Shown here piece by piece: positions 1 to 19,060 of a stretch of DNA of 27,771 bases. This stretch comes from a virus. Position numbers and translations under genes: made by a program. Location: IMG/VR virus record IMGVR_UViG_3300048606_000091. One strand, given 5' to 3'. The notes beneath the pieces are model-generated. The model had not been told where the DNA came from and did not search any database. It saw only the letters and a program-made list of their open reading frames with translations. Each line of letters starts with the position of its first letter. Position 1 is the first letter of the stretch.

Positions 1-100
1 TCTCTCATATGAAGTGGCAATCTGGGTACGTCCGGTACCGGACACCTTTCGCTTGGGGCGATCAACCCCCGCACCGCCACGCTCTCGGGCGTTGCCACAG

Positions 101-172
101 AGCCACAGCTGGGAATCGGACCCAGAATCTCCTCCATACCAAGGAGGTGTCATACCACTAGACCACTGTGAC
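101..172 (-). tRNA. trnT: tRNA-Thr(GGU)
   Basis: Cloverleaf on minus strand: acceptor GTCACAG/CTGTGGC, anticodon arm CCTCC-TTGGTAT-GGAGG, T arm CTGGG-TCCGATT-CCCAG (C in place of U55); no encoded CCA. Confidence 0.88.
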
Positions 173-186
173 AGGTATTGCTTGCG

Positions 187-257
187 AGCCCTCGACCAGA
201 ATTGAACTGGCGTCCTAACCTTGGCAAGGTTATGTCTTACCACTAGACGACGAGGAC
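187..257 (-). tRNA. trnG: tRNA-Gly(GCC)
   Basis: Acceptor GTCCTCG/CGAGGGC, anticodon arm TAACC-TTGCCAA-GGTTA, T loop TTCAATT, discriminator U. Confidence 0.92.
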
Positions 258-311
258 AAAAGCCTGGGCAGTCCCGAAAGACGCCCAGGAGTTAGACGAA
301 CCGCACGTGCG

Positions 312-384
312 AGCCTCGACGGAGAATCGAACTCCGATACCCTGGTTGGAAGCCAGGCGCATTTATCCAGTATGCTACCGAGAC
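312..384 (-). tRNA. trnG: tRNA-Gly(UCC)
   Basis: Anticodon arm CCTGG-CTTCCAA-CCAGG, T arm CGGAG-TTCGATT-CTCCG, discriminator U. Confidence 0.92.
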
Positions 385-398
385 AGATATTACTTGCG

Positions 399-470
399 AG
401 CCCCCACGACGAATCGAACGCCGGACCAACTGCTTACAAGGCAGCCGTTCTACCACTGAACTATAGAGGC
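399..470 (-). tRNA. trnT: tRNA-Thr(UGU)
   Basis: D arm GTTC-AGTGGTA-GAAC, anticodon arm GCTGC-CTTGTAA-GCAGT, T loop TTCGATT. Confidence 0.93.
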
Positions 471-596
471 ATATTTAATTGTGTAGTCGGAAGGCCCGGG
501 CGGGTCCGGTTTGATCCGATTAGGGAAGTCACTTGCGTTGTGTATCCGGAGCCGCCGGAGTCCTTCTTGCGAGGCTTAGTCTTACGGCTACCTCAG

Positions 597-669
597 TACC
601 GATGACACGAGTCGAACGTGCATCCCGCTGATCCGAAGTCAGCTGCTCTGTCCTTTAAGCTACATCGGC
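597..669 (-). tRNA. trnR: tRNA-Arg(UCG)
   Basis: Acceptor GCCGATG/CATCGGT, anticodon arm GCTGA-CTTCGGA-TCAGC, T loop TTCGACT. Confidence 0.9.
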
Positions 670-724
670 TTGAAAGCATACTTTCTGGGCACCGTAGTGT
701 TACCAGCTGCTATGCCAGACATCG

Positions 725-799
725 TGGAACCGACAGGCATCGAACCTGCGACCTCCTGTGTGCAAAACAGGCGCTGCTACCGAACTGAGCTACGGCCCC
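725..799 (-). tRNA. trnA: tRNA-Ala(UGC)
   Basis: GGGGCCG/CGGTTCC acceptor with the G3-U70 alanine identity pair; anticodon arm CCTGT-TTTGCAC-ACAGG. Confidence 0.95.
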
Positions 800-837
800 A
801 TGAAAAATGTAGTTGTCAGAGCTACAGTGTACTAACG

Positions 838-908
838 TAGAGACACAAGGAATCGAACCTCGATAAACCGGGTGTAGGCCGGTCGCTCTCCCGTTGAGCT
901 ATGCCTCC
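838..908 (-). tRNA. trnV: tRNA-Val(UAC)
   Basis: Anticodon arm ACCGG-CCTACAC-CCGGT (C at position 33), T arm CGAGG-TTCGATT-CCTTG. Confidence 0.88.
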
Positions 909-1109
909 ATGTTCGGGGAATCGGGCCCCTTTCCCCAGCTGGTTAGTCTGGGTACTCCGGGCCCTATCCCCAGGAGCCCGCCTCGACCGATCCGCGCATC
1001 CCCACCACAGGGACCGCCTGAACCGACCTGCGCAACACCTTGTCTAGAAGTTCTACCCAAGGGGGCCGGCAGCAAGCTGGTCGGGGTTAACTTCCTTGAG
1101 TAGAACTCG

Positions 1110-1184
1110 TACCCCCGGCGGGACTCGAACCCGCGATCTCTGCCTTGAGAGGGCAGCGTCCACTCCATGCTGGACCGAGAGGGC
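1110..1184 (-). tRNA. trnE: tRNA-Glu(CUC)
   Basis: Anticodon arm CTGCC-CTCTCAA-GGCAG, T arm GCGGG-TTCGAGT-CCCGC; one acceptor-stem mismatch. Confidence 0.9.
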
Positions 1185-1205
1185 TTGAAGTTTTCAACTA
1201 CAGCT

Positions 1206-1234
1206 ACTGTAGCATGGCAAGGCGAGCATGTCAA
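1206..1234 (-). promoter_or_regulatory. Sigma70/SigA-type promoter for the left tRNA cluster, same family as the cassette promoters
   Basis: TTGACA-TGCTCGCCTTGCCATGC(17 nt)-TACAGT; the spacer matches the TGCTCGCCTTGC motif of the MTNT cassettes. Confidence 0.8.
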
Positions 1235-1480
1235 CAACTTGCTGTGCTCGACCTCTGGAGATGTTATACCCGCCCGGAGCCAGATCGCGCCACCGGGTTA
1301 CGGGGTGGGTGGCGGTGCCGTAGCCCCCAGCACCGCCACCCAGTAAACCGCCGGCCCAGCTCCCCAGCAGGCTCGGCGGCGGGCCCCTCTCCGTTCAACG
1401 ACCCCACGGACGGCCACGATACGACCATTCGAGTGTGGCACGGGCCACACAGGTCTGCTTAACGGAGATGGCTGAGCCTA

Positions 1481-2897: not shown

Positions 2898-2911
2898 TTC
2901 AAGTCACCAGC

Positions 2912-7483: not shown

Positions 7484-7894
7484 TCAAGCGGACATGCGGT
7501 CCGGGGCACCGCCCATCACGTTGGAATCGTCGGGCAGAGACACCGCGTCACCGGCACACGCGGCGACGGCCGACTCGGGGGCATAGATGGCCGACACAGA
7601 ATCACCGTCATCGCCCCGATAACCCTGGGCGAACAGACACTCGGCGACACCGTTGGCCGGGCCGTCATCGGGGGCAGGCACCCGGTACTCGGGGCCGCCA
7701 TATGAGGCCAGAGAAACGGCCTGAGCGGCAGCGTGCGGGGCCTCCTGGTGGGAGGTGACCGACAGGGCCACGAAGACCACGAATGCGGCCACGGCCAGCA
7801 CAGCGGGGATCAGGCGAGAGGCCAGGGAGATGGGCAGGACTGGGCCCACCACGCGCGGGACGATCGGCAGGTTCGGGATTTCGGTGTTCGTCAT
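7484..7894 (-). CDS. Membrane-anchored hypothetical protein (MTNT cassette)
   Basis: 136 aa, one TM helix, extracytoplasmic part with CL..QGY.G. Confidence 0.8.
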   Translation of the reverse strand: MTNTEIPNLPIVPRVVGPVLPISLASRLIPAVLAVAAFVVFVALSVTSHQEAPHAAAQAVSLASYGGPEYRVPAPDDGPANGVAECLFAQGYRGDDGDSVSAIYAPESAVAACAGDAVSLPDDSNVMGGAPDRMSA

Positions 7895-7944
7895 AAGACA
7901 AAACTAGCATAGGCGAGCAAGGATAGCAAGGCCAGTTTTCAGGC

Positions 7945-7976
7945 AAAAAAAGGCCCCCCTGCAGAGAGGGGGGTCC
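7945..7976 (-). terminator. Intrinsic terminator
   Basis: GC hairpin followed by T7 on the minus strand, just after the 7989 stop. Confidence 0.8.
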
Positions 7977-7988
7977 AGGGAAGGGGGG

Positions 7989-8159
7989 TCAGTCGCGCTG
8001 GCCCAGAGCGAACAGACGGCGGTCGATTTCGACCAGCGCCCGGCGGGAAATCCCGGATGCGGCCGGATCGGTGGAGTGGCGCACGTGGGCCTTCAGCTGG
8101 CCCTCCAGGGCAAACAGCTGGTTGACGTTGAGGCTGGCGAGAGATGCGATGTTCGTCAT
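7989..8159 (-). CDS. Small hypothetical protein (MTNI cassette)
   Basis: Hand-translated 56 aa MTNIASLASLNVNQLFALEG...ALGQRD; has its own promoter and terminator; below the ORF-track cutoff. Confidence 0.8.
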   Translation of the reverse strand: MTNIASLASLNVNQLFALEGQLKAHVRHSTDPAASGISRRALVEIDRRLFALGQRD

Positions 8160-8221
8160 AACACAAAGCTACACGAGCAAGGCGAGCAAGTCAAGCATTT
8201 CAGCAAGATTCTTTTTGGAGC

Positions 8222-8252
8222 AAAAAAGAGGCCCCTCCGGAGAGGGGCCTCT
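8222..8252 (-). terminator. Intrinsic terminator
   Basis: AGAGGCCCCT..AGGGGCCTCT stem with a T tract. Confidence 0.85.
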
Positions 8253-8264
8253 GAGGGAAGGGGG

Positions 8265-8504
8265 TCAGGCAGGGAACCGACGTCCCACCAAATGCCAAGC
8301 CTCGGAACGGGCACCGGGGCCGGCACCCGGATCGGCCAGGATGACCTCGGTGTAGATCTTTCCATTGCCCAACGGGGTCGAGTGAACGGTGATCTTTGCC
8401 GCCTTGCGAGTCCGCGCGAAATTCACCGCGTCCAGCACATCGACATAGGTGTCGGTCGACAACGCGCCGTAGAAAGTGGGGGCCTCAGTGGTGGTGTTCG
8501 TCAT
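8265..8504 (-). CDS. Hypothetical protein (MTNT cassette)
   Basis: 79 aa, flanked by cassette promoter and terminator. Confidence 0.8.
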   Translation of the reverse strand: MTNTTTEAPTFYGALSTDTYVDVLDAVNFARTRKAAKITVHSTPLGNGKIYTEVILADPGAGPGARSEAWHLVGRRFPA

Positions 8505-8555
8505 GACACAAAACTAGCATAGGCGAGCAAGGATAGCAACACCCAATTTTCGAGC

Positions 8556-8585
8556 AAAAAAAGGCCCCCTCGGGATGAGGGGGCC
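8556..8585 (-). terminator. Intrinsic terminator
   Basis: GGCCCCCTC-ATCCC-GAGGGGGCC plus T7. Confidence 0.85.
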
Positions 8586-8589
8586 GTGG

Positions 8590-8784
8590 TCAGGGCCGGG
8601 CCATCAGCCACAAGAAACCACCGATGAAAGTGGCCCCGCCGCCGATGATCGCGCCGAGCAAAGGAAGGGCGAACCAGCCGGTGGCCGGGCTGATCAGGCA
8701 CAGCCCGATGATCGCGAAAAGCAAGATCGGCAAACCAACATTCAGGAAGGCGAAACCATCGCGCTCCCACCCGGCGGCGATCAC
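8590..8784 (-). CDS. Small membrane protein, translationally coupled
   Basis: 64 aa, two TM segments; GTG start overlaps the TGA of the 38-aa MTNT peptide (GTGA). Confidence 0.65.
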   Translation of the reverse strand: MIAAGWERDGFAFLNVGLPILLFAIIGLCLISPATGWFALPLLGAIIGGGATFIGGFLWLMARP

Positions 8785-8897
8785 AGCGCCAGGAAAACGC
8801 GAGAGCGGGTGCGGACCGGGGCGGCCGGAGCCTTGGGCGCGGGGGTCGGGTACGAGGGGGCAGGGAAGGGGCGGCTGGCGGAGCTGGTGTTCGTCAT
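8781..8897 (-). CDS. 38-aa Pro-rich peptide (MTNT cassette)
   Basis: MTNTSSASRPFPAPSYPTPAPKAPAAPVRTRSRVFLAL; directly follows a cassette promoter. Confidence 0.7.
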   Translation of the reverse strand: MTNTSSASRPFPAPSYPTPAPKAPAAPVRTRSRVFLAL

Positions 8898-9059
8898 AGG
8901 ACAACACTAACATGGCAAGGCGAGCAAAACAAGAGGTCCAGCAAAATTGTTTTCAGGCCAGCAAACGAGCCCTGAGAGCAAGGCTAACAAGATCGGTAAG
9001 GCGAGCAAGGGAAAGGCCCCCGAACCGAGGTCCGGGGGCCAGATGGGCGAGTGAGAGGG

Positions 9060-9335
9060 TCAGGCGACCGGAGCACGGCGGGCATAGTCCGAGAGAGCCT
9101 CGGCAGCGGCGCAGAGCATGTCGGAACGAGCCTCCAGGCCCAGCCCGGTCAGCACGGCGAACGACTCGGCACCCCGGTCCTCGAAGTCGACCCAACCGAG
9201 GTCGGCCAGCCGCGCGGCCAGCCCGTACTCCCAGCCGGCGAGCCGCGAGGTCGAGACCGGGAACCGGAACATCAGGGGCGGAGCGGCCAGGGAGTCATCG
9301 AGGGACAGGGACCGGGGGGAGGTGGTGTTCGTCAT
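9060..9335 (-). CDS. Hypothetical protein (MTNT cassette)
   Basis: 91 aa; promoter at 9342-9370, hairpin at ~9015-9040. Confidence 0.8.
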   Translation of the reverse strand: MTNTTSPRSLSLDDSLAAPPLMFRFPVSTSRLAGWEYGLAARLADLGWVDFEDRGAESFAVLTGLGLEARSDMLCAAAEALSDYARRAPVA

Positions 9336-9427
9336 AGGACAACACTAACATGGCAAGGCGAGCAAAGCAAGAGGTCCAGCAAGATTGTTTTGGAGCCCCC
9401 CGAACCGAGGTCCAGGGGGCCAACCAA

Positions 9428-9757
9428 CTACCGGGAGCCCGTGCGGAAACCCACGTGAACCGAGGCCGGGATGATCGACCGGGCCAGCACGGCGAGCCCC
9501 TCGACATCCTCGGGGGCGCACGCGACCAGCCACGCGCCATCGGGAGAGCCGGAGAACTCGACCACCCGGGGGTCGGCGACCAGCGCGGTGCGCCACGCTT
9601 CGGGGGCCTCGTTTTTGACCCAACGGCCACCGACCACGATCGAGCCGCTGGCCAGGTGGATGATCGACAGCCGCCACGGGGTGGGGCCGAACGGGATGCG
9701 GCGATCCGACAGCGGGCGGTTGACGCGAGAGATGAATGGGATTTCAGTGCTCGTCAT
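9428..9757 (-). CDS. Hypothetical protein (MTST cassette)
   Basis: 109 aa starting ATGACGAGCAC 7 nt after TAGTGT; the longer track start runs through the promoter. Confidence 0.8.
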   Translation of the reverse strand: MTSTEIPFISRVNRPLSDRRIPFGPTPWRLSIIHLASGSIVVGGRWVKNEAPEAWRTALVADPRVVEFSGSPDGAWLVACAPEDVEGLAVLARSIIPASVHVGFRTGSR

Positions 9758-9850
9758 AAAAGCAACACTACACGAGCAAGGCGAGCAAGTCAAGAGGTCC
9801 AGCAAGATTGTTTTGAGGGCCCGCAACCGAGGTCACGAGCCCCCAACCGA

Positions 9851-10225
9851 TCAACGAAGATCCGCGTACTGGCCGACCGAGAGATCATCAAAGGTCGGGC
9901 GATCCACGAACACAGAGCCGGTTTCACCCTCGGAGGTCCGCAGGTCCACCCGGAACGCCTCGGGCACATCCTCGTCGCCATAGATCGGGGTCGAGATGTC
10001 GATGTCACCATCAGCATCGGTGTCGATGTCGATCGATGAGACCTCCACGATTTCCGTGTGGGCCGGCACGACGACCAGCGCGTCCACCCGACCGGAGGTC
10101 ACGGCGTTGGCGGAGCTGATGACCATGAAAGCGATCAAGCCCACGATGGCCGCCACGGTGGCGACCAGCAGAGCGGCAACGGGGTCGATGGAGGAGAGGC
10201 GGCGGGCAATTCCGGTGTTCGTCAT
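9851..10225 (-). CDS. Membrane-anchored hypothetical protein (MTNT cassette)
   Basis: 124 aa; N-terminal TM helix then an acidic beta-rich domain. Confidence 0.8.
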   Translation of the reverse strand: MTNTGIARRLSSIDPVAALLVATVAAIVGLIAFMVISSANAVTSGRVDALVVVPAHTEIVEVSSIDIDTDADGDIDISTPIYGDEDVPEAFRVDLRTSEGETGSVFVDRPTFDDLSVGQYADLR

Positions 10226-10280
10226 GACACAAAGCTACACGAGCAAGGCGAGCAAGTCAACAGGTCCAGCAAGATTGTTT

Positions 10281-10379
10281 TCAGCGTGGGCAGGCACACA
10301 CGATGACCAGCCGACACCCGGGGCACGGGATGGGCTGGGGGTTCAGGCCAGCCCACCACGCACGCAAGCGAGTGATCAT
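10281..10379 (-). CDS. 32-aa Cys-rich peptide, translationally coupled
   Basis: MITRLRAWWAGLNPQPIPCPGCRLVIVCACPR; TGATG overlap with the upstream stop. Confidence 0.45.
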   Translation of the reverse strand: MITRLRAWWAGLNPQPIPCPGCRLVIVCACPR

Positions 10380-10666
10380 CAACTGACCGTGTTGACCAGC
10401 GCGGACAGCACGGCGGAGAACTGGACCTCCGAGGCACACGACAGCCGCACCCGGCCGGTCTCGATCAGGTAGGTGCCAGAGCCATTCCAGCGCGGCCGGT
10501 GAGCCATCAGGATGACCTCCCAGCACCCATCGGCGTCCAGGATGGACAGAGCGAGCATCTTCGAGCTGTGGTGAAACAAGCCGCTCGCGCCATTGAGGGT
10601 GAAGCCGAGAGCCTGGGCCCACTGGCGCTGGCGATCCATGACCGGGGAAAGCGTGGTGTTCGTCAT
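10379..10666 (-). CDS. Hypothetical protein (MTNT cassette)
   Basis: 95 aa from MTNTTLSP. Confidence 0.8.
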   Translation of the reverse strand: MTNTTLSPVMDRQRQWAQALGFTLNGASGLFHHSSKMLALSILDADGCWEVILMAHRPRWNGSGTYLIETGRVRLSCASEVQFSAVLSALVNTVS

Positions 10667-10773
10667 AAGAGAAACACTACACGAGCAAGGCGAGCAAGTC
10701 AAGCATTTCAGCAAGATTGTTTTCAGGCAAAAAAGAGACCCGACTCCAGGGGAGCCGGGCCGGGTGGATGGGG

Positions 10774-11118
10774 TCAGACGGACAGGATCGCCACCGCGCG
10801 ACGGATCAGGGCCAGCGACACGCCGGTCGCGTCCATCTCGACCTTGCGCGCGTCGGCATACGGGGAGCTGACCAGCTCGGCCAGGTCCGCGCCACCGATG
10901 GAAGCGAGCACGGTCCACTTCCGAGCACCCGCCGCGCCGGAGAGCACAGACACCCGGGCGCCCGACTGATCCGAGTAGGAATCCCGGTCCACCACGACCT
11001 GCACGACCTCACCGTTGACGTGGAAGGTCTCGGTGAAGATCACGCGCTGGCTCGACTTGCGGGTGAAGGAGCGGTCAACGGAGGTGAAGGGCTGGGCGAC
11101 TGCTGCGGTGTTCGTCAT
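10774..11118 (-). CDS. Hypothetical protein (MTNT cassette)
   Basis: 114 aa from MTNTAAVA; hairpin plus T tract at ~10728-10762. Confidence 0.8.
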   Translation of the reverse strand: MTNTAAVAQPFTSVDRSFTRKSSQRVIFTETFHVNGEVVQVVVDRDSYSDQSGARVSVLSGAAGARKWTVLASIGGADLAELVSSPYADARKVEMDATGVSLALIRRAVAILSV

Positions 11119-11233
11119 AGGACAACCATACCCTGGCAAGGCGAGCAAGTCAAGCATTTTGCCAAGATTGTTTTGAGAGACGACTGAGGCCCCGCAACCG
11201 GGAGGTCACGGGGCCCGTCGAACGGAGAGGGGG

Positions 11234-11578
11234 TCAGCCCAGCACGACCAGGTCAGCGGCTGCCCACGCGGCCTCCAGGCGAGCCTGACCAGCCTCGGTC
11301 AGGCGGTAGGTCACCCGGCCATCCTGCTCGCCGGAGACCCATCGGCGCTCGGTGACCAGCCCGTGATCCACGAACACGAGGATGGCGGTACGGCGCTCGA
11401 CAGAGAAACCGGACAGGTCGGCGGAGTACGCCTTGGCGGCAACCGAGGCCACCCAGTTCAGGTACCGATACGGGGTGGCGATGACAGTCAGATCGGTGGT
11501 GAAGCTCGGGACCGCGTCCACGAACTCGACGTGATCGAAGTTGTCGGTGGCCTCGGGGGTGTTTTCGATGTTCGTCAT
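11234..11578 (-). CDS. Hypothetical protein with a winged-HTH-like C-terminus (MTNI cassette)
   Basis: 114 aa; GLV..RRW..GRVTYRLTEAG resembles the wing/C-terminal motif of PadR/MarR-type wHTH proteins. Confidence 0.7.
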   Translation of the reverse strand: MTNIENTPEATDNFDHVEFVDAVPSFTTDLTVIATPYRYLNWVASVAAKAYSADLSGFSVERRTAILVFVDHGLVTERRWVSGEQDGRVTYRLTEAGQARLEAAWAAADLVVLG

Positions 11579-11692
11579 AAGAAGAACACTACACGAGCAA
11601 GGCGAGCAAGTCAACAGGTCTAGCAAGATTGTTTTGAGCAAGCGAAAGGGCCCGCAACCGAGGTCACGGGCCCTGAGGGTCGGATGATCTTT

Positions 11693-12010
11693 TTACCAGG
11701 TCAGCGCGTCCGTGTAGGAGCCGAGTTCGATGATCTCGCCCTGGGGCATCTCGAAGCCCTGCGAGCCGGCGTCCAGCACCTCGCCGAGCGTGCCATTCCA
11801 ATACGGGCCACGCGGCGCGGTCGCGCTGATCGTCACCGATCGCTCGTCCCGCACCCAGGTGGTCAGCGACCGAACGAAGGCCAGGAACTCCTGCCAGCTC
11901 TCATACTCGGCCCACTCGTAAGAGTCGCCCTCGACCTGCTCGATCTTGCGCTCGATGGCAGCCTGCACAGCTTTGACAACGTCCTGGGCGGTGAATTCGG
12001 TGTTCGTCAT
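11693..12010 (-). CDS. Hypothetical acidic protein (MTNT cassette)
   Basis: 105 aa. Confidence 0.8.
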   Translation of the reverse strand: MTNTEFTAQDVVKAVQAAIERKIEQVEGDSYEWAEYESWQEFLAFVRSLTTWVRDERSVTISATAPRGPYWNGTLGEVLDAGSQGFEMPQGEIIELGSYTDALTW

Positions 12011-12123
12011 GACACAAAGCTACCAGCTACAGGCCAGCAAGTCAAGCATTTCAGCAAGATTGTTTTCAGCGGACATGAGAGAAGCCCCGGACACCTTGCG
12101 GCATCCGGGGCTCGGTGGGCAGG

Positions 12124-12399
12124 TCAGATACCGAGTAGGTAATCCAGCTCGATCTCAGCGGCGGAGCGAGCCCGGTCCAGCGCGTCAGAGCCGCCCGAGG
12201 TGAGATCGAGCAACCGGGTTCGGCCGTCAACGCTGAACCGAACGGTGATGGCGCCCGCGTCGACCAGGGTGCGGATGGTCGCGTCCACGCGTCGGTCGAC
12301 CTGCAGCACACGCAGCGACCGACCATGATCGCCGCCCGCGCCCGCGTCGATGCGAGAGAGCAGATCGAAGGGAGTTTCAACAACCACTGTGTTCGTCAT
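12124..12399 (-). CDS. Hypothetical protein, possibly wHTH-like (MTNT cassette)
   Basis: 91 aa from MTNTVVVE; IRTLVDAGAI...LLDLTSGG pattern; hairpin at ~12083-12112. Confidence 0.75.
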   Translation of the reverse strand: MTNTVVVETPFDLLSRIDAGAGGDHGRSLRVLQVDRRVDATIRTLVDAGAITVRFSVDGRTRLLDLTSGGSDALDRARSAAEIELDYLLGI

Positions 12400-12439
12400 A
12401 GGACAACCATACCCTGGCAAGGCGAGCAAGTCAAGCATT

Positions 12440-12742
12440 TCAGCCGAGAAGTTTGTCGAGATCGATCTGCGGCAGACCACGCCAGACCTCCTTGACCACC
12501 TGCTCGGGGCTGTCGTCGGTCCACAGAGGATGCTCCGGGCCGATGAACAGCCCAGCCATCTCCGAGACCTCCACGCGCGTGTCCGCAAACACAGCGCGCA
12601 CCCGGATGGTCCGGCGGAAGCCCAGCCACAAGGTGGAGATCTTCGTGACCAACAGGAGCCGGCCGGTCAGCTCGATCGGGGCGAACATCGGGTGATATTG
12701 CACGAAGTCATTCTCGTCGAACGACGGCTGCCACTTGGTCAT
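12440..12742 (-). CDS. Hypothetical protein
   Basis: 100 aa from MTKWQP; ATGA-coupled to the upstream MTNT gene. Confidence 0.7.
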   Translation of the reverse strand: MTKWQPSFDENDFVQYHPMFAPIELTGRLLLVTKISTLWLGFRRTIRVRAVFADTRVEVSEMAGLFIGPEHPLWTDDSPEQVVKEVWRGLPQIDLDKLLG

Positions 12743-12999
12743 GATCGGCGGGTGATGGTGATCGAATACTCCGAGCCGTCCATGACCCGGACGACCAGAC
12801 CTCGGTCCCGAGACAAGATCGTGTAGTCCTCGAAAGTGGTCACGGCCCGGACCTCGTCCTCCAGAGCCTCCGCTTCCTCCTGGGGCGAGCCTTCGAGCAG
12901 TTGCTGCAACGCGCGCTCGATCAGCACCTCGATGGTGATCTCCGGCGGCGCCGGGTAGACCGCGTCCTGCATTTCCTGGAAGAGCTTCGTGTTCGTCAT
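12739..12999 (-). CDS. Hypothetical acidic protein (MTNT cassette)
   Basis: 86 aa. Confidence 0.8.
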   Translation of the reverse strand: MTNTKLFQEMQDAVYPAPPEITIEVLIERALQQLLEGSPQEEAEALEDEVRAVTTFEDYTILSRDRGLVVRVMDGSEYSITITRRS

Positions 13000-13047
13000 A
13001 GGACAACCATACCCTAGCTAGGCGAGCAAGTCAAGCATTTTGACAAT

Positions 13048-13079
13048 AAAAAACCCCGTGACTCTTGCGAGCCACGGGG
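13048..13079 (-). terminator. Intrinsic terminator
   Basis: CCCCGTGGCTC-GCAA-GAGTCACGGGG plus T tract (GNRA tetraloop). Confidence 0.85.
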
Positions 13080-13090
13080 CACCCGGATGG

Positions 13091-13486
13091 TCAGCTGCAG
13101 GCGTAGTAGTCGACAGAGTCCACGATCATGAGCTGGGTGGCGATGCCATACGGAGCCTGCACCCCGGCATAGCCCTTGTCCTTGAGGCAGCTCACCGTGC
13201 CAGGCGTGGTGATATTCACGTACACGTACTGCGGGTTGGTGAACGGGGTGAACGTGCCGTTCCCGCCGTCATGCGTGATCGAGAGCGTGCCACCGGGGAC
13301 CTTGTAGCCCTGACCCGCGTCGGGGATCGGGTTGTGCGGGCCCCAGAGCAGGAACGCGCCAGCTGTCAGAGCGACTGCTACCAGTGCGACCACGATCAGC
13401 TGGGCGAGCCGGCTGAGCTTGAGGGAAGGGACAGGGATGGAGATCTGCTTGCGGGGGGTGGGCTCTACGGCCTCTGTGTTCGTCAT
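13091..13486 (-). CDS. Membrane-anchored hypothetical protein (MTNT cassette)
   Basis: 131 aa, one TM helix; CL..KGY.G motif loosely shared with 7484..7894. Confidence 0.8.
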   Translation of the reverse strand: MTNTEAVEPTPRKQISIPVPSLKLSRLAQLIVVALVAVALTAGAFLLWGPHNPIPDAGQGYKVPGGTLSITHDGGNGTFTPFTNPQYVYVNITTPGTVSCLKDKGYAGVQAPYGIATQLMIVDSVDYYACS

Positions 13487-13528
13487 AGGACAAACATAGC
13501 ATGAGGCAAGCAGGATAGCAAGTCCATC

Positions 13529-13780
13529 TCAGATAAACTTTCCAGCACCGTACTTGCTGCGGCGGCCGAACCGGAACCCGTGACAGCTACAGCCGCCGGG
13601 GTCCGGTTCGTGCGTGTGACAGAACACAGCGGTGTCTTCACCGAACACCCGTGCTAGAAGGGCGGCGAGCCGTCCAGCCCGATGGCGTCCGCGAACTCCT
13701 CGTCGGTCATGCGACCGAAAGTGGTGCCCGCATACGCAAAACGCTTCCGGGTCGACCGGTACTTGGTTGAGGGAAGGCAT
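13529..13780 (-). CDS. Hypothetical Cys/His-rich protein
   Basis: CxCGH...H...C...CxC..F pattern; overlaps the HAD gene 3' end by 127 nt. Confidence 0.5.
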   Translation of the reverse strand: MPSLNQVPVDPEAFCVCGHHFRSHDRRGVRGRHRAGRLAALLARVFGEDTAVFCHTHEPDPGGCSCHGFRFGRRSKYGAGKFI

Positions 13781-14388
13781 GCAACTGGCTTCGGCTGCCG
13801 GATCTCATATGTCACAGTCATATCCCACGCCAATCGAGCCGTCTTCAGCCATGCTGCCACAGCTTCGAGGTCATGCATTTGGATCCCTACGTAGGGGTCG
13901 ACCTCGTGCAAAAGTGTCGGAAGGTTGCGACGTGAGTTATCAAACCCGGAGGCAGCTCGCTTGCGCGCGTGATGCGTGAAACTATCATCTAACCACGCGA
14001 GAGGTCGGCCAGCCGCGAAGCTCTGCATCGCCGGGAACTTCCACAGCTTCGAGCCTGCTCGATGTCCGTGAAAGTCCACCCACGGTAACCGTGGTAAACC
14101 GAGAGCCGGCGAGACGATGGTGTTTGCGTTGTGCTCCCACAACGATGCCCAGACAAGCTCAACGTCGTGCTCGATCGAGAACGCGCGGAGCATCCCCCCG
14201 TGCTTGGGCGACAGGAACAGATTCGAGTACGGAATCCATGTCGAGCCGGGCACATAGCTCACCTGGTTACGCCACGGCACCGACCGGAAGCCTCGGGCGA
14301 GCACGTTCTTGATCTCAGCCTTGTTGTGGGCTCGTGGATTGAGGGGACCATCGATGTCGATAGCCAGAATGGGCGTAGTGTTCGTCAT
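13654..14388 (-). CDS. HAD-superfamily phosphatase (Swiss Army Knife RNA-repair-like HAD type) (MTNT cassette)
   Basis: Motif I LAIDIDGPLN, motif II LVWASLW, conserved K, motif IV LAWLDD; promoter TTGACA-17-TATACT. Confidence 0.85.
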   Translation of the reverse strand: MTNTTPILAIDIDGPLNPRAHNKAEIKNVLARGFRSVPWRNQVSYVPGSTWIPYSNLFLSPKHGGMLRAFSIEHDVELVWASLWEHNANTIVSPALGLPRLPWVDFHGHRAGSKLWKFPAMQSFAAGRPLAWLDDSFTHHARKRAASGFDNSRRNLPTLLHEVDPYVGIQMHDLEAVAAWLKTARLAWDMTVTYEIRQPKPVACLPSTKYRSTRKRFAYAGTTFGRMTDEEFADAIGLDGSPPF

Positions 14389-14469
14389 AACAGGAGTATA
14401 GCAAAAAGCCAGCAAACTGTCAAGTCTGCTGGCCCTTGCTCTTCCCGCCCGGGAAAGCCTAGCTACATA

Positions 14470-15531
14470 CTACCCTCGCACACCGGTCCACACAATCTCG
14501 GTCAGCTCACGCTGGTATCGATCCTCGATGCGGTGGAACCAGTCACCCGGGATACCCGCCGGGTCATACGCGCCCGCGAGAGCACCGGTGATGGCAGCCG
14601 TCGAATCACTGTCGCCACGCGTCCAGGCAGCCGCTCGGATCGAGTCCACGAAGCCGAGGTCGGCATCGAACACACCCACGGCCATGGCCACAGCCTCGCG
14701 AGCCCGCCACCCCTGGCCCGAGTAGTCCGCCGGGTCGAAAGTGAACAGCTCTCGCGTCTTCAAGGCAGCCGTCAGATCGCCGGCAGCCATCGCAATCCAC
14801 CGGACGTGCTCGATGCCCTCGCGAACGTAGTCTTCCGGAGATTCGTGGTGCTTGCTCTGGTCATCGCTCTCGACTACCAGCTTCCACAAGATCGAGCCCA
14901 GCCCGATCGAGTCGTACGCCATGTCCTCGTGTGCATCCGCCCACTCGGACAGGAAGCCGACAGCTCCACCGGGAGCCACGTTGCCTCGGGCGATCTCTCG
15001 GGTCAGAGAGGCCAGAGCGGCAGCCGCGAACGCATTCTCCGCCGGACCGTGCGTGAGCACAGCCTGCATCGCTGCCACGGTGAACAGCTGCTCGTCCGAG
15101 ACCTTGTCCGACAGACCAACCCACGCCGCGCGCATGACCGAACCGCAGCCAGCCGAGGTGTGCGAGGTCGCCTGCTGCCAGCCACCCAGTCCCATCCGAG
15201 AAAGCTTGGCCAGCGCGGACATGCAGGTGTTGCCCGGAGCACGAGCCCAGCCAGTGGCCTGCTCGTCATACCAGGTGTCGAACTCGACGGCCAGCTCCTG
15301 GCGGAGCAGTCCGAGGTGCTCACCGTCCCACGCCTCGATCGCCTTCATGACGTAGATGGACATCTGGGTGTCATCGGTCACCCGGAACCGCGCCGGGGCG
15401 ACCGGACCCTTGCCGTCCATGGGCGGGTGCGCGAACTCGATGGGATCACCATATGCATCTCCGCACGCCAGACCCCACACGGCTCCGGCGAATCGGTTCT
15501 GGTCAATCTGCACGTTCTCTGTGTTCGTCAT
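14470..15531 (-). CDS. ADP-ribosylglycohydrolase (DraG/ARH family) (MTNT cassette)
   Basis: GLACGDAYG, TDDTQM, GxGSVMR, TH and GDSDSTAAITGAL motifs. Confidence 0.93.
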   Translation of the reverse strand: MTNTENVQIDQNRFAGAVWGLACGDAYGDPIEFAHPPMDGKGPVAPARFRVTDDTQMSIYVMKAIEAWDGEHLGLLRQELAVEFDTWYDEQATGWARAPGNTCMSALAKLSRMGLGGWQQATSHTSAGCGSVMRAAWVGLSDKVSDEQLFTVAAMQAVLTHGPAENAFAAAALASLTREIARGNVAPGGAVGFLSEWADAHEDMAYDSIGLGSILWKLVVESDDQSKHHESPEDYVREGIEHVRWIAMAAGDLTAALKTRELFTFDPADYSGQGWRAREAVAMAVGVFDADLGFVDSIRAAAWTRGDSDSTAAITGALAGAYDPAGIPGDWFHRIEDRYQRELTEIVWTGVRG

Positions 15532-15621
15532 AGGACAATCATACCACAGGTCAGCAAGGATAGCAAGTCCAGAAACGACAGAGCCCCCGACCCGGAGGCC
15601 AGGGGCAGTCGAGCGGGTGGC

Positions 15622-16083
15622 TCAGAGCTTGATCAGGAACCCTACGCCGTGGTTCACACCGCCGCAGCTGCAGACGCACAGCGGGCCGGTGGCGAACTCG
15701 CAGCGGCTGTCGCAGTGGTGGTGCTCGGCGTCCGAGACGGTGCCTACCAGCTGCTTGGCCTTGACCTTGACGGTCTTGCCGTGGTTGCTGCAGTGCAGCT
15801 TGAACGGGTGGTCCTTGACCGCGTGGGTCTTGCAGCCCTTGACATAGCACTTCGCGGAGAAGCGACCGTACGCCTTGGGCTGGTGGTCGATGACCTTAGG
15901 AGCCTCAACCGTGATCTCGGTGGTCGCGGGGACCTCAACCACCATCGCACCGAAGTACTTGTTGTGGAAGCAGTCCTTCACGTCCTTGACGGTGGGGTGG
16001 TACTTCGGAGCCTGGAAGGTGGAGCAGTTGCCGCACTTGATCTGGAGGGGGGACTCGGTGGCTGCCTGCGCTGTGTTCGTCAT
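15622..16083 (-). CDS. Cys/His-rich multi-zinc-finger protein (MTNT cassette)
   Basis: 153 aa with CxxC...H...C, CxxxxC..H, CxxH and CDxRCxxAxGxxCxCxCGGxNHG. Confidence 0.8.
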   Translation of the reverse strand: MTNTAQAATESPLQIKCGNCSTFQAPKYHPTVKDVKDCFHNKYFGAMVVEVPATTEITVEAPKVIDHQPKAYGRFSAKCYVKGCKTHAVKDHPFKLHCSNHGKTVKVKAKQLVGTVSDAEHHHCDSRCEFATGPLCVCSCGGVNHGVGFLIKL

Positions 16084-16152
16084 GTAAGTAATATAGCACG
16101 GAGCAGCAAGGCAAGCAAGTAGTTATTTCAAGAATCTTCTAGCAAGATGAGA

Positions 16153-16189
16153 CTGCCCTGCAGGCTACGGAACAGAACCTGCAGGGCAG
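16153..16189. terminator. 12-bp inverted repeat, probable terminator
   Basis: CTGCCCTGCAGG...CCTGCAGGGCAG. Confidence 0.55.
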
Positions 16190-16216
16190 GTCATCGGGGA
16201 GATGACCAAAGGAGTA

Positions 16217-16327
16217 CTACCCGGAGAGCAGGCAGTAGTACACATCATTGAACGTGGTCATCAACGCCAGAGCCAACGCGGAGCAGCCGACGATGCAGAG
16301 CACGATGCCCAGCTTCTCCTTGGTCAT
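16217..16327 (-). CDS. 36-aa membrane peptide
   Basis: MTKEKLGIVLCIVGCSALALALMTTF...; ATGA-coupled to 16324..16659. Confidence 0.5.
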   Translation of the reverse strand: MTKEKLGIVLCIVGCSALALALMTTFNDVYYCLLSG

Positions 16328-16659
16328 CGCTTCCCGCTCTTGACCCACTCGCAGGAGCCGTGCAGCTCCACCACCTTGTCGGAGGGCTTGACGGTGAACA
16401 CACCCGGGCCCTGCAAGTTGCCGTTCTGCGAGATCGTCCCGAACGAGCCGCCCGAGAAGTCCTTGTCGACCTCGAAGTAGCAGCTCTCGCGGGCCAGGTT
16501 CGCTGTCTTGTAGGTGCCTGGCGGGATGTCATCGCCCACCACGTACATGCCAGCCGCGAAGCTCACCGGTGGTGCGGGGACGACCTCGGCCGCGTGCGCG
16601 AACGGTGCGTTCAGCACGACCAGCAGGGCGGAGCCCAGGATCAGGATGAAAAGCCTCAT
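16324..16659 (-). CDS. Secreted protein
   Basis: Signal peptide ending AHA, then GMYVVGDDIPPGTYKT..CY..GSCEW, a pattern common in actinobacterial exported proteins; GGAAGG SD. Confidence 0.8.
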   Translation of the reverse strand: MRLFILILGSALLVVLNAPFAHAAEVVPAPPVSFAAGMYVVGDDIPPGTYKTANLARESCYFEVDKDFSGGSFGTISQNGNLQGPGVFTVKPSDKVVELHGSCEWVKSGKR

Positions 16660-16805
16660 GATATTGTGAACCTTCCAGTGAATCGGGGATTGGTTTTGCT
16701 GGATATGTATGGAGAACCCCAGAGCCTCTCGCGACGAGTCTCTGGGGTTCTCTGTGTTCGTCGTAGTAGTAATGTAGCACAGGTCAGCAAGGCAAGCAAG
16801 TAGTT

Positions 16806-17444
16806 CTACTCAGCAGGCTTGACATCCTTGGGCCCGAACATCAACCGAGCCCACGCCTCTGGGTCCATGCTCTCCTCGCGTGGCTTCTCCGGAACTGGTA
16901 CGTCCGTCCACGAGCTGACGATCTGGCACTCCGCGTCACCGATCTCCTTCACCAGCTCGTCCCAAGAGAATGCTCTATTACCTCGAAGTCCGGTAACATA
17001 CCAGGTGTCATCACTGGCCCGAAGTGCAACGTAGACGTACTCCGAAGGAGACGCGGCCTCGAAGACGACGTCCTCACCGAAGCCGACCTTCTGCTTCAAC
17101 CGAAGCTCGCCGGAGCCGACCTCGAAGCGCTTCGTCCAGCGCAGCACCGAACCTCGTGGTGGCTGCTTGCCCTGCCAGCGGCCCAGCAAGCTCTGCACGT
17201 CGGCGAACTTCACCAACGCAGCTCGCAAGTCCTCGGTCACGTTCTCCATCTCGGAACGTCCTCTCAATTCTACGATCTCGACGCTTGGGTTTTGGGTGGG
17301 ACGAGTTCTCATACGCCGACCCTGTGCTTGGGTAAAGCGAGCCAGACTACTGACATAGGCTTCTCCGCGAAGACGGCTCTCGATCAGTGCCGGCAGGTCA
17401 TCGTCATCAAACTCGTCGGGGATCATCCAATCTTCGATGTTCAT
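16806..17444 (-). CDS. Hypothetical protein
   Basis: 212 aa, AGGAGG SD. Confidence 0.8.
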   Translation of the reverse strand: MNIEDWMIPDEFDDDDLPALIESRLRGEAYVSSLARFTQAQGRRMRTRPTQNPSVEIVELRGRSEMENVTEDLRAALVKFADVQSLLGRWQGKQPPRGSVLRWTKRFEVGSGELRLKQKVGFGEDVVFEAASPSEYVYVALRASDDTWYVTGLRGNRAFSWDELVKEIGDAECQIVSSWTDVPVPEKPREESMDPEAWARLMFGPKDVKPAE

Positions 17445-17736
17445 GTCTACCTCCTACCCTCACAATAAAATAGTGAAGGGGACCGACCTCCACTCGTCGG
17501 TCCCCTTCACTTCCCTCACCCACACCATCGCCAGTTTGTCTCAGAGCCCTCCACAGAACGTTGGTCACCATGCCGTGATTACCAGCCATCCAAGCTGCTA
17601 ACTTGTGGGCTTCGTCATCCGGATTGGGATGCTCTGCGTTGACACTTACTACTACCCGGATCCACACTTTTTCGGTGACCCCGAGCTTCAGATAGTCATG
17701 GGAGCTGAGCGCCACGTCAAACGAGTAAACCAACAT
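17407..17736 (-). CDS. Hypothetical protein
   Basis: 109 aa from MLVYSF with a GGGAG SD; 3' end crosses a 16-bp hairpin (17472-17511). Confidence 0.6.
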   Translation of the reverse strand: MLVYSFDVALSSHDYLKLGVTEKVWIRVVVSVNAEHPNPDDEAHKLAAWMAGNHGMVTNVLWRALRQTGDGVGEGSEGDRRVEVGPLHYFIVRVGGRHEHRRLDDPRRV

Positions 17737-17762
17737 GACAGCTCCCTTCAAGTCAATGCAAA

Positions 17763-17788
17763 CGGGGGGTACCCAGAGGTACCCCCCG
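17763..17788 (-). terminator. Intrinsic terminator
   Basis: CGGGGGGTACC-TCTG-GGTACCCCCCG then TTT. Confidence 0.75.
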
Positions 17789-17808
17789 ATGTGGCTAGTG
17801 TCTTTAAC

Positions 17809-18099
17809 TCACACGTCCCGCGCGTCCAGTTCTAAGATCAGCTGCTGCCGCTCCAGGGAACTCAGCCGCGCGAGCATGCGCTTCAGCTCCTGCTTCTCAG
17901 AGACCTTCGGGTTCAACGAGTCGATCATCTGTCGGACGTTGAGCTCGGTGTCCGTACCCGGACGCACCGTGATGAACAGCCCGTTGTTGGGCAGGTCGGG
18001 GTCGTCCCCCACAATCTTGACCTTGCCGTCTGCCCACACCCATGCCTTCACTTGGAAGGACACGCTGGGGAACTTGGTCTTCGGATTGAACGTAGCCAC
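17809..18099 (-). CDS. Hypothetical protein
   Basis: 96 aa from a GTG with an AAGGAG SD. Confidence 0.75.
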   Translation of the reverse strand: MATFNPKTKFPSVSFQVKAWVWADGKVKIVGDDPDLPNNGLFITVRPGTDTELNVRQMIDSLNPKVSEKQELKRMLARLSSLERQQLILELDARDV

Positions 18100-18245
18100 T
18101 ATAGGCTCCTTCGTTGTAGTGCTGTGGTCCCGGAACCGCCGGGTCGGCCTTGCGTCTGTGGTACTACCCCTCGTCCTCGACTTCGAGCCCGGCAAGGTGC
18201 GAAGCGATGATCTCGACCTGCACCTCGCAGCAGCCCCGCTCCATG

Positions 18246-18392
18246 TCACTCGCCTCGCAGCGAACGACGGATGGCAGCCTGGCGGCCATCACGGCGGGTG
18301 GCCTCGCGGCGCACCTTACCCGAGGGGATGGGCTGGGCCGCGTTGCTGGCGCGGAGCCCCTGGATGGCCTGAACCTTCGTGGTGTTCGTCAT
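18246..18392 (-). CDS. 48-aa basic peptide (MTNT cassette)
   Basis: MTNTTKVQAIQGLRASNAAQPIPSGKVRREATRRDGRQAAIRRSLRGE; promoter TTGCTA-17-TAGTCT at 18399-18427. Confidence 0.75.
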   Translation of the reverse strand: MTNTTKVQAIQGLRASNAAQPIPSGKVRREATRRDGRQAAIRRSLRGE

Positions 18393-18430
18393 AGCTAAAG
18401 ACTAGCACAGGCCAGCAAGGATAGCAAGTC

Positions 18431-18496
18431 CTAGATGATGCGCATGACCAGGACAACCAGCAGCACAACCACGACGATGGTGATCAAGGTTCCCAT
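18431..18496 (-). CDS. 21-aa single-TM peptide
   Basis: MGTLITIVVVVLLVVLVMRII, 5 nt after GGGTATCCT. Confidence 0.45.
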   Translation of the reverse strand: MGTLITIVVVVLLVVLVMRII

Positions 18497-18534
18497 GATC
18501 AAGGATACCCGGAGCGACGACAGCTAACCCTGCG

Positions 18535-18613
18535 TGGTAGGGCGGGTGGGGATTGAACCCACGTGCACCGGCTACCCTTTCAACATGTTATAAGCATGAG
18601 GGGATACCGCCCC
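18535..18613 (-). tRNA. Atypical tRNA-like gene, anticodon UAU (Ile?), no conventional D arm
   Basis: Acceptor GGGGCGG/CCGCCCT-A-CCA, T arm GTGGG-TTCAATC-CCCAC, anticodon hairpin CATG-CTTATAA-CATG; only 8 nt between acceptor and anticodon stems. Confidence 0.7.
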
Positions 18614-18622
18614 GTGCTTGCG

Positions 18623-18697
18623 TAGACCGAGTGGGATTCGAACCCACAACCTCAGAGTTTTGAACCCTGCTCCTCTGCCAGATTGGGATACCGGTCC
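18623..18697 (-). tRNA. trnL: tRNA-Leu(CAA), short variable loop
   Basis: Anticodon arm CAGGG-TTCAAAA-CTCTG, T arm GTGGG-TTCGAAT-CCCAC. Confidence 0.9.
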
Positions 18698-18794
18698 AAG
18701 ACCACGCCGCCTCGGGGGTACGTCATGGCTTCGAATCTCACGCTCACACACGACGTCAGCGAATGTCACGGCCTCCGCTCGTGCCCCAAGCGCG

Positions 18795-18871
18795 TGGTAC
18801 CAGATGCAGGAATCGAACCTACCTGATCTTCTTCATCAGAGAAGCGTCCACGACCAGTGGACTTATCTGGC
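18795..18871 (-). tRNA. trnI: tRNA-Ile(GAU), CCA encoded
   Basis: Acceptor GCCAGAT/ATCTGGT-A-CCA, anticodon arm CTTCT-CTGATGA-AGAAG; unusual A8 and G37. Confidence 0.82.
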
Positions 18872-18907
18872 TTGAAGAGCTAGCCCCGCCGAGCTGGGCT
18901 AGCTCAG

Positions 18908-18990
18908 TACCGGTCACAGGAATCGAACCTGCACTCCCGAAGGAACGAGAACCTAAATCTCGCGCGTCTGCCTAGTTCCGCCACACCGGC
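18908..18990 (-). tRNA. trnL: tRNA-Leu(UAG)
   Basis: Anticodon arm CGAGA-TTTAGGT-TCTCG, variable arm TTCC-TTCG-GGAG, T loop TTCGATT. Confidence 0.93.
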
Positions 18991-19007
18991 ATGTTTAGTT
19001 GTAAGGA

Positions 19008-19060
19008 GGACAGCGGCTCAACGCGGAGTTTATGACGAACACCTTGCGGAGCCGCCGTCC
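19008..19060 (-). ncRNA. Candidate small antisense RNA complementary to the shared 5' tag of the MTNT genes
   Basis: GGACGGCGGCTC/GAGCCGCTGTCC 12-bp stem (G-U only on the minus strand) plus CGC/GCG, apical region GGTGTTCGTCATAAA = reverse complement of TATGACGAACACC; lies between two minus-strand tRNAs. Confidence 0.75.

What the first reader, a model, noticed from the sequence alone, without database searches (positions are those of the whole stretch)
14..19060. Recurrent 'tRNA + ~2 nt + hairpin' architecture: tRNAs may punctuate a set of small RNAs
Seen: closed stem structures start exactly 2 nt after the discriminator of tRNA-Thr(GGU) (14-98), tRNA-Glu (1049-1107), tRNA-Leu(UAG) (18877-18905) and tRNA-Pro (19008-19060). 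Others start at the CCA of tRNA-Ile (18701-18798) and ~5 nt after tRNA-Arg (483-591). Established analogy: gammaherpesvirus tRNA-miRNA (TMER) units use tRNA 3' processing to release regulatory hairpins. Inference: RNase Z/RNase P cutting would liberate these spacers as discrete RNAs, one of which has an obvious target set.
Basis: partly seen in the sequence, partly recalled or inferred. Interest (0 to 1): 0.7.

Follow-up and report, generated by a model that had tools for sequence, protein, structure and literature searches.

The report
tRNA-trailer antisense RNA for leaderless genes
In this uncultured phage, a hairpin placed two bases after a tRNA carries a loop complementary to the shared first eleven bases of about twenty other phage genes, and it likely acts as one small RNA that would switch their translation off together.

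Summary
The geometry is real. The first long stem starts 1-3 nt after the discriminator in 23 of 49 tRNA trailers from this phage and three relatives (5.3 expected). The six named hairpins are not equal.

The tRNA-Pro trailer (19008-19060) is the discovery. Its loop region is the only minus-strand antisense copy of ATGACGAACAC, which begins 17 promoter-proximal, apparently leaderless genes exactly and 21 within one mismatch. Three other large-phage sequences keep the same 15 bases in a hairpin with a different stem: two after tRNA-Pro, one with no tRNA. Best reading: an RNA-OUT-like antisense RNA that blocks initiation on this gene set (0.62, untested).

The Arg and Thr(GGU) trailers and an unnamed element behind the Glu hairpin (912-1035) are conserved but show no target set. 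The named Glu, Leu and Ile hairpins are not conserved. The releasing nuclease is unresolved. Six of nine near-complete phages with such starts lack the hairpin.

This scan earlier noted the shared start on a neighbouring window of this genome; look-ups returned no note of the antisense hairpin.

The parts
19008..19060 (-). tRNA-Pro 3' trailer hairpin, candidate antisense RNA; 12-bp basal stem, weak upper stem
   Evidence: z -5.0 to -5.6; same loop and different stems in L113, G001, G002
19031..19043 (-). antisense core GGUGUUCGUCAU(A); the predicted 7-nt apex (19031-19037) exposes the complement of AUGACG
   Evidence: only minus-strand copy against 17 sense copies; 0.02 expected by chance; folds
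19062..19136 (-). tRNA-Pro(UGG), no encoded CCA; discriminator at 19063
19161..19169 (-). second promoter-like motif (GGGTATAAC) 25 nt upstream of tRNA-Pro; function inferred
   Evidence: motif class 13 minus vs 2 plus in the window, 58 vs 4 in G001, 17 vs 1 in G002
19194..19537 (-). MTNT gene with sigma-70-type promoter directly upstream of the tRNA-Pro cluster; possible read-through source of the antisense RNA
   Evidence: promoter 19537-19509 and no terminator called in 18300-19700
7484..18392 (-). array of predicted target genes starting ATGACGAACAC or a one-mismatch variant 5-7 nt below a TANNNT box (starts 7894, 8159, 8504, 8897, 9335, 9757, 10225, 10666, 11118, 11578, 12010, 12399, 12999, 13486, 14388, 15531, 16083, 16764 [ACG], 18392)
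23538..24899 (-). further MTNT gene (453 aa), predicted target
18907..18990 (-). tRNA-Leu(UAG); RNase P cleavage at its 5' end would give the Pro trailer a 3' end (inferred)
18877..18905 (-). Leu(UAG) trailer hairpin; strong fold, absent in L113
   Evidence: z -4.0; 1-nt spacer in L113; best match z 3.5 to a different Leu trailer
18795..18871 (-). tRNA-Ile(GAU), the only window tRNA with encoded CCA
18701..18794 (-). Ile trailer; fold not beyond chance, no homologue found
   Evidence: z -1.2; best z 2.0
18622..18697 (-). tRNA-Leu(CAA)
18535..18613 (-). atypical tRNA-like element with UAU in an anticodon-like loop and no normal D arm
   Evidence: weak Rfam tmRNA/tRNA-clan hit, 20.7 bits; canonical tRNA-Ile(TAT) at this place in L113
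1206..1271 (-). promoter region of the left tRNA cluster: TTGACA-17-TACAGT (1234-1206) plus GGGTATAAC (1271-1263)
   Evidence: read from the sequence
1109..1184 (-). tRNA-Glu(CUC)
1049..1107 (-). Glu-proximal hairpin; not conserved; its 3' arm holds a second-class promoter motif at 1058-1050
   Evidence: z -3.1; best z 1.0
   Evidence: z 14.4, 0 of 200 shuffles; 37 of 37 consensus pairs kept; no Rfam family
596..669 (-). tRNA-Arg(UCG)
483..594 (-). Arg trailer; sequence blocks shared with the G001 Arg trailer, predicted folds differ
   Evidence: z 8.2, 0 of 200
258..291 (-). hairpin plus U run after tRNA-Gly(UCC); likely a terminator; conserved in G001
   Evidence: z 8.8; fold
100..172 (-). 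tRNA-Thr(GGU)
14..98 (-). Thr(GGU) trailer; multibranch fold closed by a 7-bp stem, similar layout in G001
   Evidence: z 4.5, 2 of 200 shuffles; folds

Best explanation
The hairpin after tRNA-Pro carries the complement of the start shared by about twenty phage genes, and it is likely cut out during tRNA maturation as a small RNA that would pair over their start codons and block their translation together. Shown: the complementarity, its uniqueness, its display at the tip of a predicted hairpin, and its retention in relatives while the stem changes. Inferred step 1: the target mRNAs are leaderless, because ATG lies 5-7 nt below a -10 box. Inferred step 2: the trailer survives as a discrete RNA of about 55-70 nt once tRNA-Pro's 3' end and tRNA-Leu's 5' end are made, protected by the G+C-rich basal stem; the nuclease is not identified. 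Inferred step 3: the apex pairs first with AUGACG at the free 5' end, and the weak upper stem opens to give 11-12 bp. Inferred step 4: this prevents initiation and turns down an early gene set. An MTNT gene lies upstream of the hairpin in all five cases seen, so the circuit may be negative feedback. The other conserved trailers (912-1035, Arg, Thr) are likely structured RNAs with other roles. The non-conserved ones are likely spacers shaped so as not to disturb tRNA folding.
For: (1) 17 exact sense copies and one antisense copy in the window, 0.02 expected; 21 of 21 copies within one mismatch have a -10 box. (2) Of 10 window and 29 G001 trailers scanned, only the Pro(UGG) trailer has a 9-mer whose complement is strongly repeated on the same strand: 19 vs at most 3 in the window, 38 vs at most 11 in G001. 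(3) L113 differs at 10 of 53 bases; 0 of 19 pairs break, 4 change on one side and 2 on both, and none of the changes falls in the 15-nt core. (4) G001 (34 sense copies) has the core in a different stem 2 nt after tRNA-Pro(UGG), z -3.2; G002 (13 sense, 1 antisense) has it in a third stem, z -5.7. All four show the same predicted 7-nt apex. (5) Of 66 viral stretches holding the 15-mer, only those from G001 and G002 lie on the same strand as many such starts, and they fold best (-30 and -37 vs -3 to -26 kcal/mol). (6) None of the 5 antisense copies has a -10 box above its reverse ATG, so they are not reverse gene starts. (7) Duplex energy minus opening costs: mean -13.5 kcal/mol for 20 targets vs -2.1 for 60 control starts, with no overlap. 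(8) Precedents: the RNA-OUT loop binds the unstructured 5' tail of its mRNA (PMC4737173, passages), and the mycobacterial B11 RNA represses through hairpin loops (PMC10470900, passages).
Against: No expression, end-mapping or functional data. A nested co-folding model gave no preference for targets (-2.5 vs -2.3 kcal/mol; 20 targets, 131 controls); it cannot represent loop pairing, but the result is null. The energy gap follows from the complementarity and is not independent evidence. Six of nine near-complete phage records with five or more such starts show no antisense hairpin (Honk, Cen1621, G006, G012, G014, G016), so the shared start does not depend on the RNA. The Zeta1847 case is weak: fold z -1.0 and missed by model R1. 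No case was found where loop and target changed together, so co-evolution is not shown. G001 has a second antisense 11-mer that is not shown in a loop. 'Early' and 'repress' are inferences.
Confidence: 0.62

Rival explanations
1. The RNA pairs with the same 5' ends but protects or stores the messages (shielding them from 5' exonuclease, or delaying them) rather than silencing them.
For: Uses the same complementarity and conservation. An 11-12 bp duplex at a 5' end could block 5' decay (my knowledge of RNase J). It could explain why many unrelated genes keep the start.
Against: The pairing covers the AUG itself, which a leaderless message needs free (established knowledge). Phages without the hairpin keep the start.
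Confidence: 0.1
2. The RNA is an exclusion or immunity factor aimed at the early messages of superinfecting relatives, which share the same start, more than at the phage's own programme.
For: The same start recurs in unrelated actinophage groups. Zeta1847 has a serine recombinase and no identified repressor (PMC7302621, passages), and carries a weak antisense hairpin.
Against: G001 and G002 show no tyrosine integrase or serine recombinase. The RNA would hit the phage's own 13-34 genes equally. The Zeta hairpin is weak.
Confidence: 0.1
3. The loop acts only in cis, pairing with the 5' end of its own transcript, or is a decoy or binding site for a protein that recognises the start motif in RNA or DNA.
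For: An MTNT start lies a few hundred bases upstream of the hairpin in all five cases. No trans activity is shown.
Against: tRNA processing would separate hairpin and 5' end in three of five cases. A DNA site needs no covarying stem. A decoy would more simply copy the sense strand.
Confidence: 0.1
4. The hairpins are only processing aids, terminators or inert spacers, and the complement is an inverted leftover of a start cassette.
For: Fits the Gly(UCC) hairpin with its U run and the non-conserved Glu, Leu and Ile trailers. The 1-3 nt offset could simply keep the cut site free.
Against: Does not explain an invariant 15-nt core in three unrelated stems, its place at the apex, or the lack of promoter remnants. 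Chance expectation for the 15-mer is 1e-5 to 2e-4 per sequence.
Confidence: 0.08

Closest known systems
IS10 RNA-OUT / RNA-IN (PMC4737173, passages read)
   Same: A hairpin loop starts pairing with an unstructured mRNA 5' tail and blocks translation.
   Different: RNA-OUT is encoded opposite its single target and covers a ribosome-binding site. Here one RNA encoded elsewhere matches 17-34 messages over 11-12 nt of coding sequence from the AUG.
Mycobacterial B11 / 6C sRNA (PMC10470900, passages read)
   Same: Actinobacterial, many targets, pairing through hairpin loops, no known Hfq; one cited target is leaderless.
   Different: Host-encoded; C-rich loops bind G tracts, mostly at ribosome-binding sites; no Rfam match to the trailers here.
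Phage antisense RNAs: lambda OOP and PaQ, P22 sar (listed in PMC5415839, passages read); P1 c4 and P4 CI (recalled)
   Same: Phage RNA controlling the phage's own genes; c4 and CI are cut from a precursor by RNase P (recalled).
   Different: Each has one or a few targets; none is recalled as a tRNA trailer or as acting on a shared N-terminal codon string. No Rfam hit.
Lambda PreS (bioRxiv 10.1101/2024.10.31.621285, abstract and one discussion section read)
   Same: Phage-encoded, trans-acting base-pairing RNA.
   Different: Hfq-dependent and aimed at host genes (dnaN, alaS).
Theta ribozymes (PMC10879173, passages read)
   Same: A structured RNA directly 3' of phage tRNAs.
   Different: HDV-like self-cleaving fold with a catalytic C; such a topology was found in 0 of 10 window trailers.
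Gammaherpesvirus TMERs and E. coli tRNA 3' spacer sponges (both recalled)
   Same: A tRNA precursor serves as the source of a regulatory RNA.
   Different: TMERs feed the eukaryotic Dicer/Argonaute path and the E. coli spacers absorb sRNAs; here the trailer is predicted to bind mRNA starts directly, and can occur without a tRNA.

Membership tests
Theta (HDV-like) ribozyme | structured RNA starting within 5 nt of the tRNA 3' end | tested here: met
   offsets 1-3 in 23 of 49 trailers; criterion from PMC10879173
Theta (HDV-like) ribozyme | nested P1/P2/P3 pseudoknot with C in J4/2 | tested here: not met
   0 of 10 window trailers, 1 of 49 overall; loose descriptor written from recalled topology, no positive control; no Rfam ribozyme hit
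Gammaherpesvirus TMER | tRNA followed closely by a hairpin | tested here: met
Gammaherpesvirus TMER | eukaryotic virus with pre-miRNA maturation by Dicer/Argonaute (recalled) | tested here: not met
   window proteins match actinobacterial phages; promoters are sigma-70 type
Gammaherpesvirus TMER | release by RNase Z cleavage after the discriminator | not testable with these tools
   needs RNA ends; 62 of 64 trailers start with C and 4 of 64 with CCA; literature mixed
RNA-OUT-type antisense RNA | target-complementary bases shown in a hairpin loop over a weak upper stem | tested here: met
   predicted folds in 4 of 4 large-phage cases; apex opening cost 0.0, whole 12-mer 4.6 kcal/mol
RNA-OUT-type antisense RNA | target 5' end free and unstructured | tested here: inconclusive
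   opening cost 0.1-6.3 kcal/mol if transcripts start at the ATG; start sites not mapped
RNA-OUT-type antisense RNA | encoded in cis, opposite its target | tested here: not met
   same strand as the targets and at a separate place
RNA-OUT-type antisense RNA | represses translation | not testable with these tools
   no functional data
Any Rfam 15 family (c4, YrlA, 6C, GOLLD, ROOL and others) | covariance-model match over the trailer | tested here: not met
   no match over any named trailer at E up to 1 in the window; in relatives only sub-threshold matches, nearly all on tRNAs

The most novel reading that the evidence does not exclude
Large actinophages run a regulon addressed by its first four codons: one tRNA-trailer RNA silences 20-40 leaderless genes at once to end the early phase, and the tRNA arrays double as processing scaffolds that release several further unclassified RNAs.
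Probability: 0.4. Interest if true: 0.87.

Novelty: new variant of a known kind. Interest (0 to 1): 0.76.

Why it matters
Leaderless messages have no ribosome-binding site for a small RNA to cover, and how they are regulated after transcription is poorly known (my knowledge). A single natural RNA aimed at a shared AUG-proximal code would show one solution and give a compact, chaperone-free repressor design for actinobacteria. It would also offer a route for early-gene shut-off in large actinophages, and a further use for phage tRNA arrays beyond decoding. The central test needs only a reporter and a 60-nt RNA. A cultured phage (Zeta1847) carries a weaker candidate, and two cultured relatives (Honk, Cen1621) have the starts without it, which gives a natural contrast.

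Tried and rejected
No genome is held for the window. DNA searches of cultured phages with both tRNA clusters hit only tRNA bodies. A first tRNA-linked pattern in viral contigs gave 10 stretches, none with a tRNA. A protein-seeded locus search found nothing.

The bacterial-genome scan was too loose and covered 11 of 64 parts; its only multi-copy loci were L296 and L298, and the genome behind L296 carries the G001 sequence again. The metagenome scan gave 27 stretches, 2 tRNA-Pro-linked (L113, and L124 which is the G001 contig). A scan for the Zeta-type loop gave 39 stretches and no new case.

Pattern scans for the Arg element and the 912-1035 element found only G001; four other hits were chance, one inside a tape-measure gene. 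Opposite-strand copies in G006, G007, G014, G015, G016, G019, G021 and G027 were divergent gene starts or showed no loop display. Percival, Floof, Caron, IAmGroot and Sixama lack the repeated start in the stretches read, so no loop-target co-variation test was possible.

blastn did not detect the Arg, Thr or 912-1035 homologues; they rest on syntenic alignment. No sigma-70 region 2 gene (0 of 5 records) and no CCA-adding enzyme (0 of 3) were found. No RNA holder was listed among 8 runs; this is no evidence on expression. Contigs of four runs showed relatives over the region, but the difference table was cut and showed no rows inside the Pro hairpin, so variation there among soil relatives remains open.

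Ten literature searches listed no paper on such an RNA; the library lacks most subscription journals. The Microbacterium phage survey has 0 hits for 'antisense' or 'leaderless' in its main text; its supplements were not read.


Full report
Setting. The window looks like part of a large phage of actinobacteria. Its ADP-ribosylglycohydrolase has its best cultured-phage matches in Mycobacterium, Gordonia, Rhodococcus and Streptomyces phages at 35% identity or less. The two tRNA clusters match cultured phages only through tRNA bodies. The runs holding it best are soil metagenomes. Twelve minus-strand tRNAs lie in two clusters, 100-1184 and 18622-19136.

The observation. Stems start 2 nt after the discriminator of Pro, Leu(UAG) and Thr(GGU), and 1-2 nt after Glu and Arg. 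Fold z-scores run from -5.6 (Pro) to -1.2 (Ile). Over 49 trailers of at least 30 nt from the window, G001, G002 and L113 (15 shorter ones dropped), the first helix of 6 bp or more starts at offset 2 in 12 (1.55 expected) and at offsets 1-3 in 23 (5.3 expected). The spacing is therefore selected. That alone does not make the spacers functional RNAs, since keeping a cut site unpaired would give the same pattern.

Which trailers are conserved. G001 is a 186-kb IMG/VR record with nearly the same tRNA order; 8 of 13 window proteins tested hit it at 36-60% identity. Each of 11 window trailers was aligned to 15 trailers from G001 and L113 with 200 shuffles. The syntenic partner scored best for the element at 912-1035 (z 14.4), Gly(UCC) (8.8), Arg (8.2) and Thr(GGU) (4.5, 2 of 200), and for Pro (23.1 to L113, 8.5 to G001). 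The named Glu hairpin (best z 1.0), Ile (2.0), Ala and Val had no partner, and Leu(UAG) only a weak non-syntenic one. In G001 the 912-1035 element follows tRNA-Glu directly, and all 37 consensus pairs are kept; five change on both sides, two of these in a doubtful first helix. None of the trailers matches Rfam.

The target set. ATGACGAACAC occurs 17 times on the minus strand and once in the opposite sense, inside the Pro hairpin; 0.02 matches are expected. Within one mismatch there are 21 copies, all 5-7 nt below a TANNNT box, so the messages are inferred to be leaderless. Twenty begin with ATG and can form 11-12 contiguous pairs with the trailer. No other trailer has a comparable repeated complement, in the window or in G001. 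An earlier scan note (e1-5347690) reported the same start block just beyond this window; I had found and counted it here first. Word and sequence look-ups returned no note of the antisense copy.

Conservation of the antisense hairpin. L113, a metagenome contig, has tRNA-Pro followed by the hairpin with 10 changes in 53 nt, no broken pair among 19, six compensated pairs and an unchanged core. G001 has 34 sense copies and the core in an unrelated stem 2 nt after tRNA-Pro(UGG). G002, which shares only 2 of the 13 proteins tested, has 13 sense copies and one antisense copy in a third stem, placed after a stop codon and before a terminator-like hairpin, with no tRNA. All four fold with the same 7-nt apex exposing the complement of AUGACG. 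Among 66 viral stretches with the same 15-mer, only G001 and G002 pair it with many same-strand starts, and they fold best. Zeta1847, a cultured Microbacterium phage, has 11 sense copies and one antisense copy between genes 69 and 70, but its fold is unremarkable (z -1.0) and model R1 misses it; I count it as weak.

Against. Six of nine near-complete records with at least five such starts show no antisense hairpin. The start therefore probably exists for its own sake, perhaps efficient leaderless initiation (inference), and some phages exploit it. All three sequences with 13 or more exact copies carry the hairpin. Nested co-folding shows no target preference, while an accessibility-corrected duplex estimate separates 20 targets from 60 controls completely; neither is a measurement. 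No matched change of loop and target was found. No RNA run was listed.

Mechanism. The likely path is transcription from the upstream MTNT promoter (19537-19509, no terminator called before the tRNA) or from a second strand-biased motif at 19169. tRNA maturation on both sides would then release the trailer. The apex would pair with the free 5' AUGACG, the weak upper stem would open, and initiation would be lost. This works like IS10 RNA-OUT (PMC4737173, passages) and like loop-pairing B11 in mycobacteria (PMC10470900, passages). It is a member of neither family, being trans-encoded and aimed at coding sequence. The nuclease is open: 62 of 64 trailers begin with C, which suppresses some RNase Zs but not all (PMC7479834, passages). 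A theta-ribozyme role was tested with a loose descriptor and not met (PMC10879173, passages). The TMER comparison is recalled and only an analogy.

Verdict. The firm result is a conserved antisense hairpin matched to a phage-wide start code. Its function as a translational off switch is likely but untested (0.62). Ten literature searches listed no description of it, within a library that lacks most subscription journals. New variant of a known kind; interest 0.76.

Noticed in passing
window 18535-18613 (-): tRNA-like element with a UAU loop, T arm and acceptor stem ending ACCA but no normal D arm. L113 has a canonical tRNA-Ile(TAT) here, and contigs in three runs skip or replace this stretch. 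Degenerate or remodelled tRNA.
   Followed up: partly
window 912-1035 (-); L132 6412-6541: The best-conserved non-tRNA element in the left cluster: two long hairpin domains, one with a shared loop word GACUAACCA; no Rfam match and no repeated target.
   Followed up: partly
L054 9568-9737 (-); L113 about 1505-1655 (+): A further conserved element of about 160 nt upstream of tRNA-Pro(UGG) in G001 and L113 (z 16.7), not seen in the window.
   Followed up: partly
window 19169, 19938, 18169, 16222, 3169, 1271, 1058 and others (-): Second promoter-like motif GGGTA(T/G)NA(C/T) with strong strand bias in three phages. It recalls SigF/SigB-type -10 boxes (from memory); no sigma-70 region 2 gene was found in G001 or G002.
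   Followed up: partly
promoters of the MTNT genes, e.g. window 10666-10710 (-): The word CTTGC(T) recurs several times through and upstream of these promoters, suggesting a site for a DNA-binding regulator.
   Followed up: no
window 6760-7480: A+T-rich block (6820-6945) flanked by short CATAC/GTAC-rich and GGGGG-rich repeats; possibly an origin or genome-end region.
   Followed up: no
window 14-98 (-); L132 4836-4923: Both Thr(GGU) trailers have self-complementary words (GAUC, GGUACC) at or near hairpin tips, as in kissing-loop RNAs.
   Followed up: no
window 13230-13321 (+): ARAGORN tRNA-Gly(CCC) call opposite an MTNT gene, with no Rfam support; likely false.
   Followed up: partly
MH271320.1 44118, 45050, 45516 (L413): GenBank starts of Zeta1847 genes 67, 70 and 71 lie 15-45 nt upstream of the MTNT ATG, inside the predicted promoter, so they may be mis-called.
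   Followed up: no
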